A stretch of 12,045 nucleotides of DNA from a virus (lineage: Duplodnaviria > Heunggongvirae > Uroviricota > Caudoviricetes): the IMG/VR virus record IMGVR_UViG_3300041407_000052, positions 92,348 through 104,392 of that record. One strand, given 5' to 3'. Made by a program: the position numbers and the translations under genes. The notes under the pieces are model-generated. The model had not been told where the DNA came from. It saw only the letters and a program-made list of their open reading frames with translations, and made no database searches. Positions 4,781 through 11,478 of the stretch are shown here, one piece after another; position 1 is the first letter of the stretch, and every line of letters begins with the position of its first letter.

Positions 4781-4808
4781 AACAAAAAGCCCGCTCGTGG
4801 CGGGCTTC
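4781..4808 (-). terminator. Rho-independent terminator of the tRNA operon
   Basis: AAGCCCGC-cacga-GCGGGCTT then TTTGTT on minus strand. Confidence 0.85.
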
Positions 4809-4985
4809 TATTAATCGTTACTATCTCATTACCGTCTAATGACTCGACCTTGTTATAGGTTAGTTGAACTGCCACGTTAGTGGTCACGATGTCGTTCTTA
4901 CAATTCCTTGTCGGGTAATTGTTTTGTTTAGTCGCTTGAAGCGCCGTTCAAGTCTTTCTTTTACGGGACAGCACCCGGACTAGCT

Positions 4986-5185: not shown

Positions 5186-5259
5186 TGGTGTGAGATAGGG
5201 ATTTGAACCCTTCCTTCATTTTCACAGAATGAATACCTTAGCCATCGGTCTGTCTCACC
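5186..5259 (-). tRNA. tRNA-His(GUG)
   Basis: G(-1) then GTGAGA/TCTCAC, anticodon loop CTGTGAA in TCATT/AATGA stem, T loop TTCAAAT, CCA; A73 instead of C73. Confidence 0.82.
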
Positions 5260-5390
5260 ATTGTTTCTTCTAATGCTTCTTTCAGTATCTGACGATCTAA
5301 TCTGCATTCTTTCCAACTAAGTCTTGAACAGCAACGACAATCAGCTGGTCCCATATCTTTAAGTTGACGACGACGCATTTTAACTTTCAT
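5238..5390 (-). CDS. 50-aa Cys/Arg-rich micro-ORF whose 3' end overlaps tRNA-His
   Basis: Below track cut-off. AAAGGAG-6nt-ATG; MKVKMRRRQLKDMGPADCRCCSRLSWKECRLDRQILKEALEETMVRQTDG; stop TAA (5240-5238) lies in the tRNA-His D loop. Confidence 0.6.
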   Translation of the reverse strand: MKVKMRRRQLKDMGPADCRCCSRLSWKECRLDRQILKEALEETMVRQTDG

Positions 5391-5406
5391 CAAATACTCC
5401 TTTAAT

Positions 5407-5482: not shown

Positions 5483-5565
5483 TGGTGGATCAGGTTGGAC
5501 TCGAACCAACAATGCATTCAGCGGGGAGTTACAGTCCCTTGGGTTACCAATTACCCTACTGATCC
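5483..5565 (-). tRNA. tRNA-Tyr(GUA)
   Basis: Acceptor GGATCAG/CTGATCC, loop CTGTAAC, extended variable region, T loop TTCGAGT, A73, CCA; 1 nt from tRNA-Pro. Confidence 0.93.
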
Positions 5566-5567
5566 TT

Positions 5568-5660
5568 TTGTTATTAGGTAGCTCTACCGACTGAGCTTAC
5601 TCCGGTGTATACCACCAGAAATGGGACTCGAACCCATGCACACCAAGCAACTGTTAACAA
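5568..5660 (-). ncRNA. Circularly permuted tRNA-like RNA, module 2 (YrlA/Y-RNA-like topology)
   Basis: 5'->3': TTGTTA..TTGGT, GTGC, T arm ATGGG-TTCGAGT-CCCAT, closed acceptor TTCTGGT-ggtatac-ACCGGAG, TAA, D arm GCTC-AGTCGGTA-GAGC, T, ACCTA..TAACAA. Confidence 0.72.
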
Positions 5661-5731
5661 GCGATGTTCTCAAGCTTGCTTGAATTAGATCCGGTACACA
5701 ACAGTCTGACTAGTATCGAGAGTTGAATACC

Positions 5732-5812
5732 TGTTGAGTTTACCTGATCGCAGCCGGTTTGCAACTTCCGGTCAAGGAAGGTGGGAATCGAACCCATATC
5801 AGTTATCTCACA
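5732..5812 (-). ncRNA. Circularly permuted tRNA-like RNA, module 1 (YrlA/Y-RNA-like topology)
   Basis: 5'->3': TGAG-ataa-CTGA, T arm ATGGG-TTCGATT-CCCAC, closed acceptor CTTCC-ttgacc-GGAAG, D arm TTGC-AAACCGGCT-GCGA, TCAG-gtaaa-CTCA. Confidence 0.58.
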
Positions 5813-5965
5813 TAATGGGGCGTATACCCCGTTCGCTATTGTTGACTTATGTCGAATAGCATTTCTACGAATTTGGATTCCAATAATAGGCTGTACGTTT
5901 ATCCTATTCTACTATTAATCCACGTTGGTCAACCCGTGGTAGTTTTCTACTTTCAACATAGAATT

Positions 5966-6039
5966 TGGTGCCCCAGTAGAGAATCAAACTCCAATCCCCG
6001 GATTACAAAACCGGTGCATCATCACAATGCTTCAAGGGC
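5966..6039 (-). tRNA. tRNA-Thr(UGU), non-canonical
   Basis: Acceptor GCCCTTG/CTGGGGC, D stem GCAT/ATGC, loop TTTGTAA in CCGG/CCGG stem, T loop TTTGATT, CCA. Confidence 0.8.
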
Positions 6040-6448: not shown

Positions 6449-6524
6449 TGGCTCCCCCGGCTGGATTCGAACCAGCGACCTAACGGTTAACAGCCGTTTG
6501 CTCTACCAACTGAGCTACAGAGGA
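6449..6524 (-). tRNA. tRNA-Asn(GUU)
   Basis: TCCTCTG/CGGGGGA acceptor, canonical D arm, loop CTGTTAA, T loop TTCGAAT, G73, CCA; close to enterobacterial tRNA-Asn. Confidence 0.95.
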
Positions 6525-6530
6525 ATTGTT

Positions 6531-6604
6531 TGGTGCGGGCGACAGGTTTCGAACCTGCAATATTTGGGTGGAAGCCAAAGGTGTTACCGTTACACTACGC
6601 ACGC
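6531..6604 (-). tRNA. tRNA-Gly(UCC)
   Basis: GCGTGCG/CGCCCGC acceptor (U4.C69 mismatch), TTTGG-CTTCCAC-CCAAA, T loop TTCGAAA, A73, CCA. Confidence 0.9.
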
Positions 6605-6926: not shown

Positions 6927-6958
6927 ATTATATAGAAACACTCCAATACTGTCAATAC
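6927..6958 (-). promoter_or_regulatory. Perfect-consensus sigma70 promoter of the tRNA operon
   Basis: GTA-TTGACA (6955-6950), 17 bp, TATAAT (6932-6927). Confidence 0.88.
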
Positions 6959-9067: not shown

Positions 9068-10204
9068 ATGCAAGTAATCGAATTTATCAAACAGAACGGT
9101 ACTGATGCAGAAAGCATCGAAGCAGGTCTGAAAGCTTTGACGGAACAGTTCGCAATCAGTGTCAAGAAAGTGGATGACCTTCTGGTTCTGAACTACAACC
9201 AGATTGATAGCCCGAAGACTCATCCTTATGTGATGGAATGTCGCAGTCTGATTCTGGAAGCCGAAACACTGAATGTTGTTAGTCGTTCCTTTGATCGCTT
9301 CTTCAACTATGGTGAGGCATTGAATGTCATGCCTGAGATTGACTGGAAGCGTGCTGTAGCCTTTGAAAAGGTTGATGGTAGCCTGATTAAGATATACAAC
9401 CACAAAGGTCACTGGTACATCTCTACTAAGGGTACAGCATATGCAGACAGTGATTGCATGGGTTATGGTGTTACATTCAGGGAATTGGTTTGGAAAGCAA
9501 TCGGTGTAAGCAATGACGAAGAGTTCCAGCTGAAAATGCGTATGTGCATCTTTGATGAATCTGTAACTTATATGTTCGAACTGACATCAGTTGAGAATCG
9601 TGTTGTCAAGCGTTACGATGGATACAAACTACATTTCTTGGGTGCACGGTGCAATGACACGGGTATGTATGTTTGTGAGGAAGAGAAGAACTGGTTCCTT
9701 GATCCACACAGCGATATTGACTTTATTCACTACCCTAAAGAATACCGATTCAACACCGTTGAAGAATGTCTGCGTACTTCTCGTGAGTTGAAAGACCTTG
9801 ACGAAGGTTACGTTATCTACCAAGATGGTGTTCCGATTGCAAAAGTGAAGTCGCCAGCTTATGTTGCTGTGCACCATATTCGTGGTGAAGGTTTGAATCC
9901 TAAGCGAATTATGCAACTGGTACTAGTGAATGAGCAAGATGAATACTTGCAATACTTCCCAGAAGATCGTGAAGTGTTTATTCCTTATGTTGAAGCTAAG
10001 AATACACTTGACCATCAACTACATGCTGTGTACAATTCTTGCAAATGGATTGATAATCAAAAAGAGTTTGCCGTTCACGCTCAACAATATCCTTTTAAAT
10101 CAGCATTGTTCCAAGCACGAGCTAAGCAGATTGGTGTTCTTCAAGCATTCAACGATCAGCGCGAAAGTTACAAAATGGAAATTCTCAAGGAGTATGTAGT
10201 TTGA
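9068..10204 (+). CDS. rnlA: RNA ligase, T4 Rnl1 family
   Basis: 378 aa; motif I EKVDGSL, MFELTS (III), EGYVI (IV), KVKS (V); GAGGAG RBS. Confidence 0.92.
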   Translation: MQVIEFIKQNGTDAESIEAGLKALTEQFAISVKKVDDLLVLNYNQIDSPKTHPYVMECRSLILEAETLNVVSRSFDRFFNYGEALNVMPEIDWKRAVAFEKVDGSLIKIYNHKGHWYISTKGTAYADSDCMGYGVTFRELVWKAIGVSNDEEFQLKMRMCIFDESVTYMFELTSVENRVVKRYDGYKLHFLGARCNDTGMYVCEEEKNWFLDPHSDIDFIHYPKEYRFNTVEECLRTSRELKDLDEGYVIYQDGVPIAKVKSPAYVAVHHIRGEGLNPKRIMQLVLVNEQDEYLQYFPEDREVFIPYVEAKNTLDHQLHAVYNSCKWIDNQKEFAVHAQQYPFKSALFQARAKQIGVLQAFNDQRESYKMEILKEYVV

Positions 10205-10599: not shown

Positions 10600-11478
10600 T
10601 TGAAAGCGTTTATTACAGTTGGTGTAAGTGCAAGTGGTAAAACCACATTTGCAAATGAGCTTGTTGCTCAAGGTTTCCGTGATATTAATCGGGATTACAT
10701 TCGATTCAATGTCGTATGTCCGGGTTCGAACTGGAGCAACTACAAGTTCAATGGTAAGAACGAAAAGGAAGTAACCCAAATCCATGAACAAATGATCTTG
10801 GAAAGTTGGGCTCGTGAAGAGAATATTGTAATCAGCGATACCAACTTGAATGCGGGTCGTCGTAACAATCTGGTGCGAACGCTCCAAGACCTTGGCTATG
10901 TTGTTGAAATCAAAGAGTTTCATGTTGCACAAGAGACGGCGTACAAGCGTGACCGTCTGCGACCAAATGGTGTTGGTGAAGGTGTAATCTATCGTCAGTT
11001 CAAAGATTACCATGATTATGTCGGGCGTCTGACATATGTTGCTGATGAAAGTTTGCCGAAAGCTGTTATCTTTGATGTTGACGGAACCATTGCAAGCATG
11101 GATGGTCGTGGTCCATTTGAATGGAAACGTGTTGGTGAGGATAACCCTCGTGAATTCGTAATTCAAATGTTGCGTAACTATGCAATGATGGGTTACATTA
11201 TCATTATCTGCTCAGGTCGAGATGATATCTGCCGTGGCGAAACCATCGAATGGTTGAATGAAAAAGTAGGCGAGATGTTTTATCATTTGTTGTATATGCG
11301 TAAGAATGGTGACTTCCGAAAAGATAATGCTGTAAAAGAAGAAATCTTCTGGACACACCTCGCACATAAGTATAACATTGTTGCCTGTGTTGATGACCGA
11401 CCACAAATGATTCGTCTTTGGCATGAATTGAAGATTCCAAACGTGATCGCTGTCGCTGATCCGTACATTGAGTTTTAA
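10600..11478 (+). CDS. pseT: Polynucleotide 5'-kinase/3'-phosphatase, T4 PseT family
   Basis: P-loop GVSASGKTT, INRD, RxxxR (RDRLR); HAD phosphatase DVDGT, SGR, DDR; TTG start. Confidence 0.93.
   Translation: MKAFITVGVSASGKTTFANELVAQGFRDINRDYIRFNVVCPGSNWSNYKFNGKNEKEVTQIHEQMILESWAREENIVISDTNLNAGRRNNLVRTLQDLGYVVEIKEFHVAQETAYKRDRLRPNGVGEGVIYRQFKDYHDYVGRLTYVADESLPKAVIFDVDGTIASMDGRGPFEWKRVGEDNPREFVIQMLRNYAMMGYIIIICSGRDDICRGETIEWLNEKVGEMFYHLLYMRKNGDFRKDNAVKEEIFWTHLAHKYNIVACVDDRPQMIRLWHELKIPNVIAVADPYIEF

What the first reader, a model, noticed from the sequence alone, without database searches (positions are those of the whole stretch)
5568..5660. Circularly permuted tRNA mimic (T arm before D arm, acceptor closed by a loop): candidate phage Y RNA
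Seen: between tRNA-Thr and tRNA-Tyr the minus strand carries a perfect T arm (ATGGG-TTCGAGT-CCCAT, 5637-5621). It is followed directly by a 7-bp acceptor-like stem closed by a 7-nt loop (TTCTGGT/ACCGGAG, 5620-5600), then a textbook D arm (GCTC-AGTCGGTA-GAGC). The chain enters and exits through an anticodon-equivalent stem (TTGGT/ACCTA, 4 of 5 pairs, 4-nt variable loop) that continues into TTGTTA/TAACAA. There is no anticodon loop and no CCA, so it cannot be charged as is. Known: this permuted, loop-closed topology characterises bacterial YrlA Y RNAs, which bind Ro60/Rsr and in Salmonella lie in the rsr-yrlBA-rtcBA RNA-repair locus. Permuted tRNA genes also occur in red algae and archaea. Inference: a phage tRNA-elbow mimic acting as a decoy for tRNA-sensing or tRNA-cleaving defence proteins, a Ro60 ligand, or a permuted tRNA precursor. 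A standard tRNA scanner would miss it or call it a fragment.
Basis: partly seen in the sequence, partly recalled or inferred. Interest (0 to 1): 0.9.

Follow-up and report, generated by a model that had tools for sequence, protein, structure and literature searches.

The report
Stand-alone back-to-front tRNA mimic in phage
A Pseudomonas-type phage carries, inside its tRNA operon, a small RNA built like a tRNA opened at the anticodon end and sealed at the acceptor end; it has the shape of the known YrlA "Y RNA" tRNA mimic but lacks the Ro60 protein and the Ro60-binding handle that normally go with it.

Summary
All elbow-forming tRNA nucleotides are present. No tRNA finder calls it, and the 88-nt piece folds on its own into this shape.

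The same topology recurs in 35 other phage and metagenome elements. Their acceptor-like stems differ completely in sequence but stay paired: 94.8% of cells pair, and all 7 pairs change on both sides. Tandem-tRNA junctions do not show this.

About half of those relatives sit next to a Ro60 (TROVE) gene, so they are phage YrlA-type Y RNAs, a kind described in 2014. This copy is different:
- The complete 104-kb phage has no Ro60, RtcB or DUF7873 gene.
- The likely host genus rarely has Ro60 (2 of 201 species).
- The Ro60-binding 5' motif is absent.
- The Rfam YrlA score is 19 bits against a threshold of 69.

Re-permuting the sequence gives no tRNA. Close relatives lack the element. No expression data exist.

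My reading is a Ro60-independent, stand-alone tRNA-elbow mimic released from the tRNA operon, with its partner unknown. That makes it a new variant of a known kind. This scan has noted similar elements many times on other DNA.

The parts
5648..5651 (-). Outer closing stem, 5' strand GTTG; pairs with TAAC at 5573-5570
   Evidence: Infernal alignment to YrlA positions 16-19/90-93; minimum-energy fold equals centroid fold for the 88-nt piece
5645..5647 (-). Internal loop CTT, aligned to the CUA bulge of the YrlA consensus; faces TAA at 5576-5574
5641..5644 (-). Inner closing stem (anticodon-stem equivalent), 5' strand GGTG; pairs with TACC at 5580-5577 in the Infernal alignment (RNAfold pairs only GGT/ACC)
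   Evidence: The equivalent helix covaries in the family (helix 1, 87% paired, both pairs changed on both sides)
5638..5640 (-). Short variable loop TGC, ending in C48 (Levitt partner of G15)
   Evidence: Sequence. A metagenome variant has C to U here
5621..5637 (-). T arm: ATGGG, loop TTCGAGT, CCCAT, with G53 T54 T55 C56 R57 A58 C61
5600..5620 (-). Acceptor-like hairpin: TTCTGGT, loop GGTATAC, ACCGGAG (7 bp, or 8 bp with G5613-C5607); no free 3' end and no CCA
   Evidence: In the family all 7 pairs change on both sides. Natural variants: a loop T to C at 5611, and G to A at 5603 turning a G-U pair into A-U
5597..5599 (-). Linker TAA (U8, A9 and one extra A that may pair with T5580)
5581..5596 (-). 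D arm: GCTC, loop AGTCGGTA, GAGC, with A14 G15 G18 G19 A21
5570..5580 (-). 3' strands of the closing stems: TACC, TAA, TAAC
5566..5569 (-). AAAA spacer to the first base of tRNA-Tyr. RNase P cleavage of tRNA-Tyr would create the element's 3' end (inferred)
5483..5565 (-). tRNA-Tyr(GTA), directly downstream; present together with the element only in this lineage
5654..5876 (-). Upstream conserved structured RNA (context, not part of the element). It includes a T-arm-like hairpin at 5796-5782 and ends in a hairpin that uses TTGTTA at 5660-5655
   Evidence: blastn to relatives; consensus fold with 17 compensatory pairs
6927..6955 (-). Perfect sigma-70 consensus promoter (12/12) at the head of the tRNA array
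4785..4809 (-). Intrinsic-terminator-like hairpin with T tract at the end of the tRNA array

Best explanation
The element is a stand-alone copy of the YrlA-type tRNA-like domain, about 82-88 nt long.

**Shown.** It contains a T arm, a loop-sealed acceptor-like stem, a D arm and a closing stem, in circularly permuted order. Every nucleotide needed for the tRNA elbow is present.

**Inferred.**
- It is co-transcribed with the phage tRNA operon on the minus strand, from the promoter at 6955-6927 to the terminator at 4809-4785.
- RNase P cutting at the 5' end of tRNA-Tyr, 4 nt downstream, frees its 3' end.
- It has no anticodon loop and no free CCA end, so it can neither be charged nor decode. It would therefore act only as a tRNA-shaped ligand.
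- Neither the phage nor, probably, the host has Ro60, and the Ro60 handle is missing. It would therefore work without Ro60, by occupying or recruiting some protein that recognises the tRNA elbow or the acceptor-T helix.

This genome invests heavily in tRNA supply and repair: at least 9 tRNAs, two RNA ligases and Pnkp. In that setting the most likely job is as a decoy or modulator in the conflict over tRNAs, aimed at a defence nuclease or a tRNA-processing or tRNA-modifying enzyme.
For: **Anatomy and fold.**; for the 88-nt piece the minimum-energy and centroid folds coincide, z = -2.0.

**Family-level support.**
- 35 sequences give 94.8% paired cells and a covariation score of 0.725, against 0.168 for shuffles (0 of 500 as high) and 0.09-0.18 for slid registers.
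- All 7 acceptor pairs change on both sides.
- Orphan elements reach 7/7 acceptor complementarity in 21 of 36 cases (23 once the window and its twin are register-corrected), against 0 of 69 tandem-tRNA junctions.

**Natural variants spare the fold.** The three changes seen are two loop changes and one G-U to A-U change. One diverged contig has 2 changes in the element, 0 in tRNA-Tyr/Pro, and about 18 substitutions plus 9 deletions in the 223 nt upstream.

**No known partner.**
- No TROVE, RtcB or DUF7873 gene in the genome, which CheckV rates 100% complete.
- All 12 ORFs of at least 430 aa are accounted for: 8 by Pfam, and the three largest plus a 450-aa ORF by phage synteny.
- TROVE in 2 of 201 species of the presumed host genus. 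Host inference rests.

**Architecture class.** A straight closing stem occurs in 11 of 18 TROVE-less elements (13 with the window and its twin register-corrected), against 4 of 18 TROVE-linked ones. The TROVE-linked ones mostly carry a GTTACTTC handle plus an anticodon-like hairpin, 12 of 18.

**Similar compact modules.** They sit tightly between tRNAs in other phages, for example L056, 3 nt after tRNA-Arg and 7 nt before tRNA-Tyr.

**Operon signals.**. RNA repair genes.
Against: - There is no transcript, end-mapping, binding or phenotype datum. No RNA run holds the region.
- The element is confined to this phage, one near-twin and metagenome variants.
- Relatives with 85-100% identical terminase, and phiPMW, lack it. 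It is therefore recent and dispensable for the lineage.
- Only three variable sites exist within the lineage, so selection on this copy is weakly documented.
- The 3-nt linker (TAA) departs from all 33 independent family members.
- Thermodynamic support is modest (z -1.5 to -2.0).
- The decoy function is pure inference.
Confidence: 0.55

Rival explanations
1. Evolutionary relic. The element is a decaying YrlA that lost its Ro60 handle, or a leftover of tRNA-gene rearrangement, carried into the array together with tRNA-Tyr and not yet eroded. It has no function.
For: It is absent from the closest relatives, which carry an odd tRNA-like gene at that spot instead. The handle is missing and the YrlA score is low. 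The linker is atypical. Very few lineage variants are available to show selection.
Against: All four helices and every tertiary-contact nucleotide are intact. The only stem change seen improves a pair, G-U to A-U. The element has diverged far less than the adjoining RNA in the same contig. Compact straight-stem modules recur in other Ro60-less phages.
Confidence: 0.2
2. Two-piece tRNA-like RNA. As in Mycobacterium smegmatis YrlA, RNase P cuts at the 5' side of the acceptor stem (between C5607 and A5606), the 3' side is trimmed and CCA is added. The result is a nicked mimic with a real acceptor end, which might even be charged.
For: Chen et al. [quoted passage not shown] This element has 7 bp stacked on a 5-bp T stem.
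Against: The position 73/-1 pair extends the helix and the loop is only 5 nt, which leaves a poor leader for RNase P. Many family members cap the stem with stable tetraloops such as GAAA, GAGA or GCAA, which suggests a cap meant to stay closed. No data exist for this RNA.
Confidence: 0.1
3. Processing punctuation. The tRNA-like fold only serves to direct RNase P, RNase Z or RNase E cuts that separate the upstream structured RNA of about 300 nt from tRNA-Tyr.
For: It sits between a conserved structured RNA and tRNA-Tyr, with 2-4 nt spacers. Several family members lie within 80 nt upstream of a tRNA.
Against: Relatives process the same upstream RNA next to a tRNA-like gene without this element. 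tRNA-Tyr supplies its own RNase P site. A full elbow with D-loop/T-loop contacts is more than a cleavage signal needs.
Confidence: 0.08
4. Genuine Y RNA. It binds a host Ro60 (Rsr) and tethers or gates it as YrlA does.
For: Its topology is the same as the YrlA effector domain. In 17 of 31 phage records with such elements a TROVE gene is present, usually within 0.3-3 kb on the same strand. At least one Ro60-less complete phage (L018) carries a full-length YrlA match with the GNCGAA motif.
Against: No TROVE in the phage or its twin. TROVE in 2 of 201 species of the presumed host genus. There is no GNCGAAN0-1G motif and no terminal handle. On the 3' side there is no room for one, because tRNA-Tyr starts 4 nt after the closing stem. 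Score 19.1 bits against a gathering score of 69.
Confidence: 0.05
5. Permuted tRNA gene. The ends are joined, for example by the phage RNA ligases, and the acceptor loop is opened to give a working tRNA.
For: The 3' half lies before the 5' half and the two acceptor strands are complementary. The phage encodes two RNA ligases and Pnkp.
Against: Joining the ends gives a stem with a 6-nt AAAACA loop: no 7-nt anticodon loop and no U33. ARAGORN, with introns allowed, finds no tRNA in the re-permuted sequence. There is no CCA and no bulge-helix-bulge motif.
Confidence: 0.02
6. Chance juxtaposition: the T arm of one dead tRNA and the D arm of another (a dimeric-tRNA artefact).
For: The Rfam YrlA model and my own model both score ordinary tandem-tRNA junctions as high or higher.
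Against: No flanking tRNA halves exist. Acceptor complementarity is 7/7 plus one extra pair, against 0 of 69 tandem controls. A closing stem is present.
Confidence: 0.03

Closest known systems
YrlA (Y RNA-like A; Rfam RF02553; Chen et al. 2014, PMC4201824), the tRNA-mimicking Y RNA bound by bacterial and mycobacteriophage Ro60/Rsr
   Same: The order of parts is the same: closing stem, short variable loop, T arm, loop-closed acceptor-like stem, U8-A9 linker, D arm, closing stem. It has the same internal loop (CUU here, CUA in the consensus) and the same conserved elbow nucleotides. Infernal aligns it to model positions 16-93.
   Different: The Ro60-binding module is missing (model positions 1-15 and 94-114, with the GNCGAAN0-1G motif). 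There is no Ro60 gene within 4 kb or anywhere in the genome. Ro60 is rare in the likely host genus. The score is 19 bits against a gathering score of 69. It sits inside a tRNA operon, 4 nt from tRNA-Tyr. The linker has one extra A.
Phage YrlA-type elements next to TROVE genes in IMG/VR contigs
   Same: The T and D arms are identical or nearly so, and the 7-9 bp sealed acceptor stem covaries.
   Different: Most of these carry a 5' GTTACTTC handle and a cis hairpin with a 7-nt anticodon-like loop, and they lie 0.3-3 kb from a TROVE gene. The window's element has neither feature.
Double tRNA-mimic RNA beside DUF7873 (PF25283): noted earlier in this scan, no paper found. Seen here in L056, downstream of the DUF7873 gene
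   Same: Permuted tRNA-like modules without Ro60, often inside phage tRNA arrays. The window also has a second T-arm module about 150 nt upstream.
   Different: There is no DUF7873 gene in this genome or its relatives. The upstream module has no canonical D arm, and it occurs in relatives without the element, so the two are not one conserved double-module RNA.
Permuted tRNA genes of Cyanidioschyzon merolae and some archaea (from my own knowledge: Soma et al. 2007; Chan et al. 2011)
   Same: The 3' half is encoded before the 5' half, and the two acceptor strands are joined by a short intervening sequence.
   Different: Those genes regenerate a complete tRNA with an anticodon loop through a circular intermediate. 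This one has no anticodon arm and gives no tRNA when re-permuted.
Two-piece (permuted) tmRNA
   Same: The T arm and 3' acceptor strand are encoded before the 5' acceptor strand.
   Different: There is no CCA, no tag reading frame and no pseudoknots. ARAGORN calls no tmRNA in the window.

Membership tests
YrlA (RF02553) | Permuted tRNA-like domain: T arm, loop-closed acceptor-like stem and D arm, enclosed by a stem | tested here: met
   Sequence; Infernal alignment to positions 16-93; minimum-energy fold equals centroid fold
YrlA (RF02553) | Conserved tRNA tertiary nucleotides (U8, A14, R15, G18 G19, A21, C48, G53 T54 Psi55 C56 R57 A58 C61) | tested here: met
   All are present in 5638-5581, read directly from the sequence. 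The modifications themselves cannot be tested here
YrlA (RF02553) | GNCGAAN0-1G motif near the 5' end (Ro60/Rsr recognition; PMC4201824) | tested here: not met
   No such motif in the 90 nt upstream. The Infernal match is local and omits positions 1-15. Compare L018, which has GTCGAATG
YrlA (RF02553) | Encoded within about 4 kb of a Ro60/TROVE gene, on the same strand | tested here: not met
   No TROVE hit in the 104-kb genome rated 100% complete. All ORFs of 430 aa or more are otherwise assigned
YrlA (RF02553) | Reaches the Rfam gathering score (69 bits) | tested here: not met
   19.1 bits. None of the 31 phage records searched reached it either; the best was 57.7 bits
YrlA (RF02553) | Binds Ro60/Rsr | not testable with these tools
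   Needs co-immunoprecipitation or a gel-shift assay
DUF7873-associated double tRNA-mimic RNA (earlier notes of this scan) | Adjacent DUF7873 (PF25283) gene | tested here: not met
   No hit in G000, in its relatives G002 and G032-G034, or in phiPMW
DUF7873-associated double tRNA-mimic RNA (earlier notes of this scan) | Two complete permuted tRNA-like modules in one RNA of about 340-430 nt | tested here: inconclusive
   A second T arm plus hairpin lies at 5796-5760 but no canonical D arm is evident. The upstream RNA is conserved without the element in L129-L131
Canonical tRNA | Cloverleaf in standard order, with anticodon arm and free acceptor end | tested here: not met
   ARAGORN and Rfam tRNA find nothing at 5566-5968. 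There is no anticodon loop, and the acceptor is closed by a loop
Permuted tRNA gene (C. merolae type) | Re-joining the termini restores a complete tRNA with an anticodon loop | tested here: not met
   ARAGORN, with introns allowed, finds no tRNA in three re-permuted versions
Tandem-tRNA junction (artefact class) | T arm and D arm each belong to a complete flanking tRNA; the acceptor strands are unrelated | tested here: not met
   No enclosing tRNAs. Complementarity is 7/7, against 0 of 69 controls

The most novel reading that the evidence does not exclude
Phages carry a class of partner-less, compact 'sealed tRNA' modules with a straight closing stem and no Ro60 or DUF7873 partner. They drop these modules into tRNA operons so that the host's own tRNA-processing enzymes release them. 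The modules then act as elbow decoys that blunt tRNA-targeting immunity or retune tRNA-modifying or tRNA-processing enzymes. On this reading, the YrlA effector domain is a free-standing, mobile anti-defence part.
Probability: 0.22. Interest if true: 0.75.

Novelty: new variant of a known kind. Interest (0 to 1): 0.5.

Why it matters
YrlA-type tRNA mimics are understood only as the effector end of Ro60 particles. This copy lacks the Ro60 handle. It sits in a complete phage genome without Ro60, and the likely host genus almost never has Ro60. That argues the tRNA-like domain can be used on its own.

If so, it points to an unknown tRNA-shape-reading partner in the phage-host conflict over tRNAs. 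It also gives a small, easily deleted and easily expressed test object. More practically, tRNA arrays in phage genomes hide structured RNAs that tRNA finders skip and that covariance models confuse with tandem tRNAs.

Tried and rejected
1. **Rfam YrlA score as a membership test.** Rejected as a discriminator. The model scores ordinary tandem-tRNA junctions as high or higher (24.5 bits at window ~6500-6560), and it rings in 13 of 14 control genomes.
2. **My own covariance model R1,** built without the window. The window scores 50.2 bits over the full length, but so do dozens of tandem junctions. It is not discriminating. What separates the classes is the absence of enclosing tRNAs together with acceptor complementarity.
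3. **Partner genes.** TROVE, RtcB and DUF7873 were searched in the genome and all were absent. A divergent vWA-type Ro60-like protein was a lead from earlier notes. No unassigned ORF of at least 430 aa exists. Small ORFs in and around the array have no Pfam match.
4. **More relatives of this exact subtype.**
   - blastn against cultured phages found only tRNA matches.
   - Terminase-based relatives include one near-twin with the element. Three closer relatives that share the upstream RNA lack it, and it was not detected in the remaining, more distant or fragmentary loci.
   - Two metagenome pattern scans gave 0 hits, then 17 hits, none of this subtype.
5. **Expression.** No RNA run holds the region. 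Contig-only data cannot show RNA ends.
6. **Re-permutation test for a hidden tRNA.** Negative.
7. **Outer stem TTGTTA/TAACAA.** Rejected as part of the element, because TTGTTA belongs to a conserved upstream hairpin.
8. **Folding the whole 403-nt spacer**. The minimum-energy structure disrupts the element and is not informative.

Full report
**Where the window lies.** The window is the last 12 kb of a 104,392-bp IMG/VR phage record that CheckV rates 100% complete. The large terminase is 78% identical to that of Pseudomonas phage phiPMW (Plaisancevirus), and gene order is the same: Pnkp, RNA ligase, small ORFs, tRNA array, terminase. A phage-borne PhaZ is 61% identical to that of Pseudomonas fluorescens. 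The DNA turns up mostly in rhizosphere metagenomes. I therefore take the host to be a fluorescent or putida-group Pseudomonas; this is an inference.

**The observation.** On the minus strand the order of parts is:
- GTTG (5651-5648), CTT, GGTG (5644-5641), TGC
- T arm ATGGG/TTCGAGT/CCCAT (5637-5621)
- TTCTGGT (5620-5614), loop GGTATAC, ACCGGAG (5606-5600)
- TAA linker
- D arm GCTC/AGTCGGTA/GAGC (5596-5581)
- TACC, TAA, TAAC (5580-5570), AAAA
- first base of tRNA-Tyr at 5565

ARAGORN finds 8 tRNAs in the window and Rfam finds 6 (9 distinct), including tRNA-Thr at 5969-6039. Neither calls anything at 5566-5968. Every nucleotide that builds the tRNA elbow is in place: U8, A14, G15, G18 G19, A21, C48, G53 T54 T55 C56 G57 A58 C61. 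The isolated 88 nt (5653-5566) fold, with minimum-energy and centroid structures identical, into a closing stem, T arm, 8-bp sealed acceptor stem and D arm at -26.6 kcal/mol, z = -2.0.

Two details change:
- The closing stem is better drawn in the register that Infernal and RNAfold choose.
- The proposed TTGTTA/TAACAA extension uses a strand that belongs to a hairpin of the upstream RNA. That hairpin is conserved, with compensatory changes, in relatives that lack the element.

**Is it more than a tandem-tRNA artefact?** The Rfam YrlA model aligns positions 16-93 of 114 to the element, arm for arm, at 19.1 bits. The same model gives 24.5 bits to the ordinary junction between tRNA-Gly and tRNA-Asn in this window, and it rings in most control genomes. 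Chen et al. warned about exactly this. So the score proves nothing.

- In 69 hits both arms belong to called tRNAs. The 7 nt after the T arm and the 7 nt before U8 then form a mean of about 3 pairs, and never 7.
- In 36 hits neither arm lies in a tRNA. In 30 of these at least 6 of 7 pairs form, and 21 are perfect.
- The window and its twin score 7/7 once their 3-nt linker is allowed for.

On an alignment of 35 such elements, the structure gives:
- 94.8% paired cells.
- A covariation score of 0.725, against 0.168 in shuffles (0 of 500 reach it) and 0.09-0.18 for slid registers.
- Changes on both sides in all 7 acceptor pairs and in both closing pairs.

The sealed, back-to-front tRNA is therefore a real and recurrent RNA fold, and the window's element has all of its parts.

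**What the family is.** Of the 31 records that could be searched whole, 17 encode a TROVE (Ro60) protein. Among records at least 90% complete the figure is 10 of 15. The YrlA-model hits in these records (30-58 bits) mostly lie 0.3-3 kb from that gene on the same strand. That is the criterion Chen et al. 2014 used for YrlA in 254 bacteria and 22 phages (PMC4201824). These are phage Ro60/YrlA loci, so the kind is known.

Within my set two architectures separate:
- TROVE-linked elements mostly have a 5' GTTACTTC handle and a cis hairpin with a 7-nt anticodon-like loop (12 of 18).
- TROVE-less elements mostly have a plain closing stem (11 of 18, or 13 with the window and its twin register-corrected), and several are wedged tightly between tRNAs.

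The four TROVE-less elements that do have the cis hairpin all come from incomplete or unsearched records. These counts are not phylogenetically independent.

**What this copy lacks.**
- No TROVE, RtcB or DUF7873 gene in this genome. TROVE and DUF7873 are also absent from the near-twin, and DUF7873 from the other relatives searched.
- Earlier notes of this scan warned that phage Ro60-like proteins can be too divergent for Pfam. I therefore listed every ORF of at least 300 aa. All ORFs of at least 430 aa are accounted for: NAPRTase, DNA ligase, ribonucleotide reductase, polymerase, primase-helicase, UvrD, portal and terminase by Pfam, and the three largest plus a 450-aa ORF as tail and head genes by synteny.
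- TROVE occurs in 2 of 201 species sampled from the presumed host genus.
- The GNCGAAN0-1G motif is absent. On the 3' side there is no room for a handle, because tRNA-Tyr starts 4 nt after the closing stem.

The 'Y RNA / Ro60 ligand' reading is therefore unlikely here.

**Not a hidden tRNA.** Joining the ends would give a stem capped by AAAACA, not an anticodon loop. ARAGORN, with introns allowed, finds nothing in the re-permuted sequence.

**History and conservation.**
- A near-twin genome (104,907 bp) has the element with one loop change.
- Relatives with 100%, 94% and 85% identical terminase keep the roughly 220-nt structured RNA upstream. In place of the element plus tRNA-Tyr they carry a single odd tRNA-like gene, Tyr-like in one of them.
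- phiPMW has tRNA-Thr and tRNA-Pro 8 nt apart.

The element plus tRNA-Tyr is thus a recent, lineage-specific cassette.

Metagenome contigs add two more variant sites: G5603 to A, which turns a G-U pair of the acceptor stem into A-U, and C5638 to U at position 48. In that diverged contig tRNA-Tyr/Pro carry 0 changes, the element 2, and the 223 nt upstream about 18 substitutions and 9 deletions. This fits purifying selection, but it rests on very few events.

**Expression.** A perfect sigma-70 consensus promoter (6955-6927) and a terminator-like hairpin (4809-4785) bracket the array on the minus strand, so co-transcription with the tRNAs is likely. This is inferred. No RNA run holds the region.

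**Mechanism.** The fold type and its family-level covariation are shown. The rest is inferred:
- The element is released from the operon by the tRNA-processing machinery. RNase P acting on tRNA-Tyr sets its 3' end.
- It folds into an L shape with a sealed acceptor end.
- It acts as a tRNA-shaped ligand without Ro60.

Given two RNA ligases, Pnkp and at least 9 tRNAs in this phage, a role in the conflict over tRNAs is the most coherent guess: a decoy for, or modulator of, a protein that reads the elbow or the acceptor-T helix. A variant mechanism has precedent in M. smegmatis YrlA, whose 7-bp acceptor stem is cut by RNase P and receives CCA. Here the helix is extended by one pair and the loop is short, so I rate that lower. 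The main rival is that this copy is a recent, functionless passenger.

**Verdict.** The structural interpretation is right, the Ro60 and permuted-tRNA readings are not supported, and the function is open. This is a new variant (stand-alone, Ro60-less) of a known kind (the YrlA tRNA mimic). This scan has already noted permuted tRNA-like modules on many other genomes, so the present copy adds a clean partner-less example rather than a new class.

Noticed in passing
window 5654-5876 (minus strand): A conserved non-coding RNA of about 220 nt follows tRNA-Thr. It is shared at 80-95% identity with relatives that lack the element. The consensus fold has 58 pairs, 17 of them with compensatory changes. 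It includes a T-arm-like hairpin (5796-5782), a variable hairpin after it, a long-range stem (TGTGAG with CTCAACA) and a terminal hairpin. There is no Rfam match.
   Followed up: partly
L130:8044-8123, L129:8121-8199, L131:7522-7598: At the position of the element plus tRNA-Tyr, the relatives carry a CCA-ended tRNA-like gene that ARAGORN does not call. L131 has a CTGTAAC (Tyr-type) anticodon loop. L129 and L130 have a degenerate anticodon region.
   Followed up: no
IMG/VR loci L064, L067, L075, L089, L092, L098, L099, L105, L107, L108, L110, L121, L125: Phage YrlA-type RNAs next to TROVE genes share a 5' GTTACTTC handle. Their 'anticodon stem' is composite: 2 pairs come from the 3' tail and 3 pairs from a cis hairpin. 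The 7-nt loops of that hairpin look like real anticodon loops (CTTTTAA, CTGTTAA, CTGTCAA, TTGCTAA and others). They are almost complete tRNAs, broken in the 5' strand of the anticodon stem. None reaches the Rfam YrlA gathering score.
   Followed up: partly
L056:5096-6320 and L056:8276-8335: One phage contig with 30 tRNAs has a DUF7873 gene followed by an RNA with two complete permuted tRNA-like modules. It also has a third, compact straight-stem module, 3 nt after tRNA-Arg and 7 nt before tRNA-Tyr.
   Followed up: partly
It lies in a 57-kb phage genome rated 100% complete that has no TROVE gene, directly upstream of a tRNA. It is a candidate for a phage Y RNA that uses the host's Ro60.
   Followed up: no
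G000:C1:66498-67643 (outside the window): A second RNA ligase (PF09414 with a PHA02142 OB-fold domain), in addition to the Rnl1-type ligase (window 9068-10204) and Pnkp (window 10600-11478).
   Followed up: no
window 6927-6955 (minus strand): A perfect 12/12 sigma-70 consensus promoter (TTGACA, 17 nt, TATAAT) sits about 240 nt upstream of the first tRNA of the array.
   Followed up: no
L005:3612-4004: ARAGORN calls a permuted (two-piece) tmRNA with tag ANDAYYGETALAA on the same 22-kb phage contig that carries a sealed tRNA-like element between tRNA-Arg and tRNA-Gln.
   Followed up: no
window 5238-5393 (minus strand): A 51-aa Cys-rich ORF with a good Shine-Dalgarno sequence lies between tRNA-Pro and tRNA-His. 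It has no Pfam match.
   Followed up: partly
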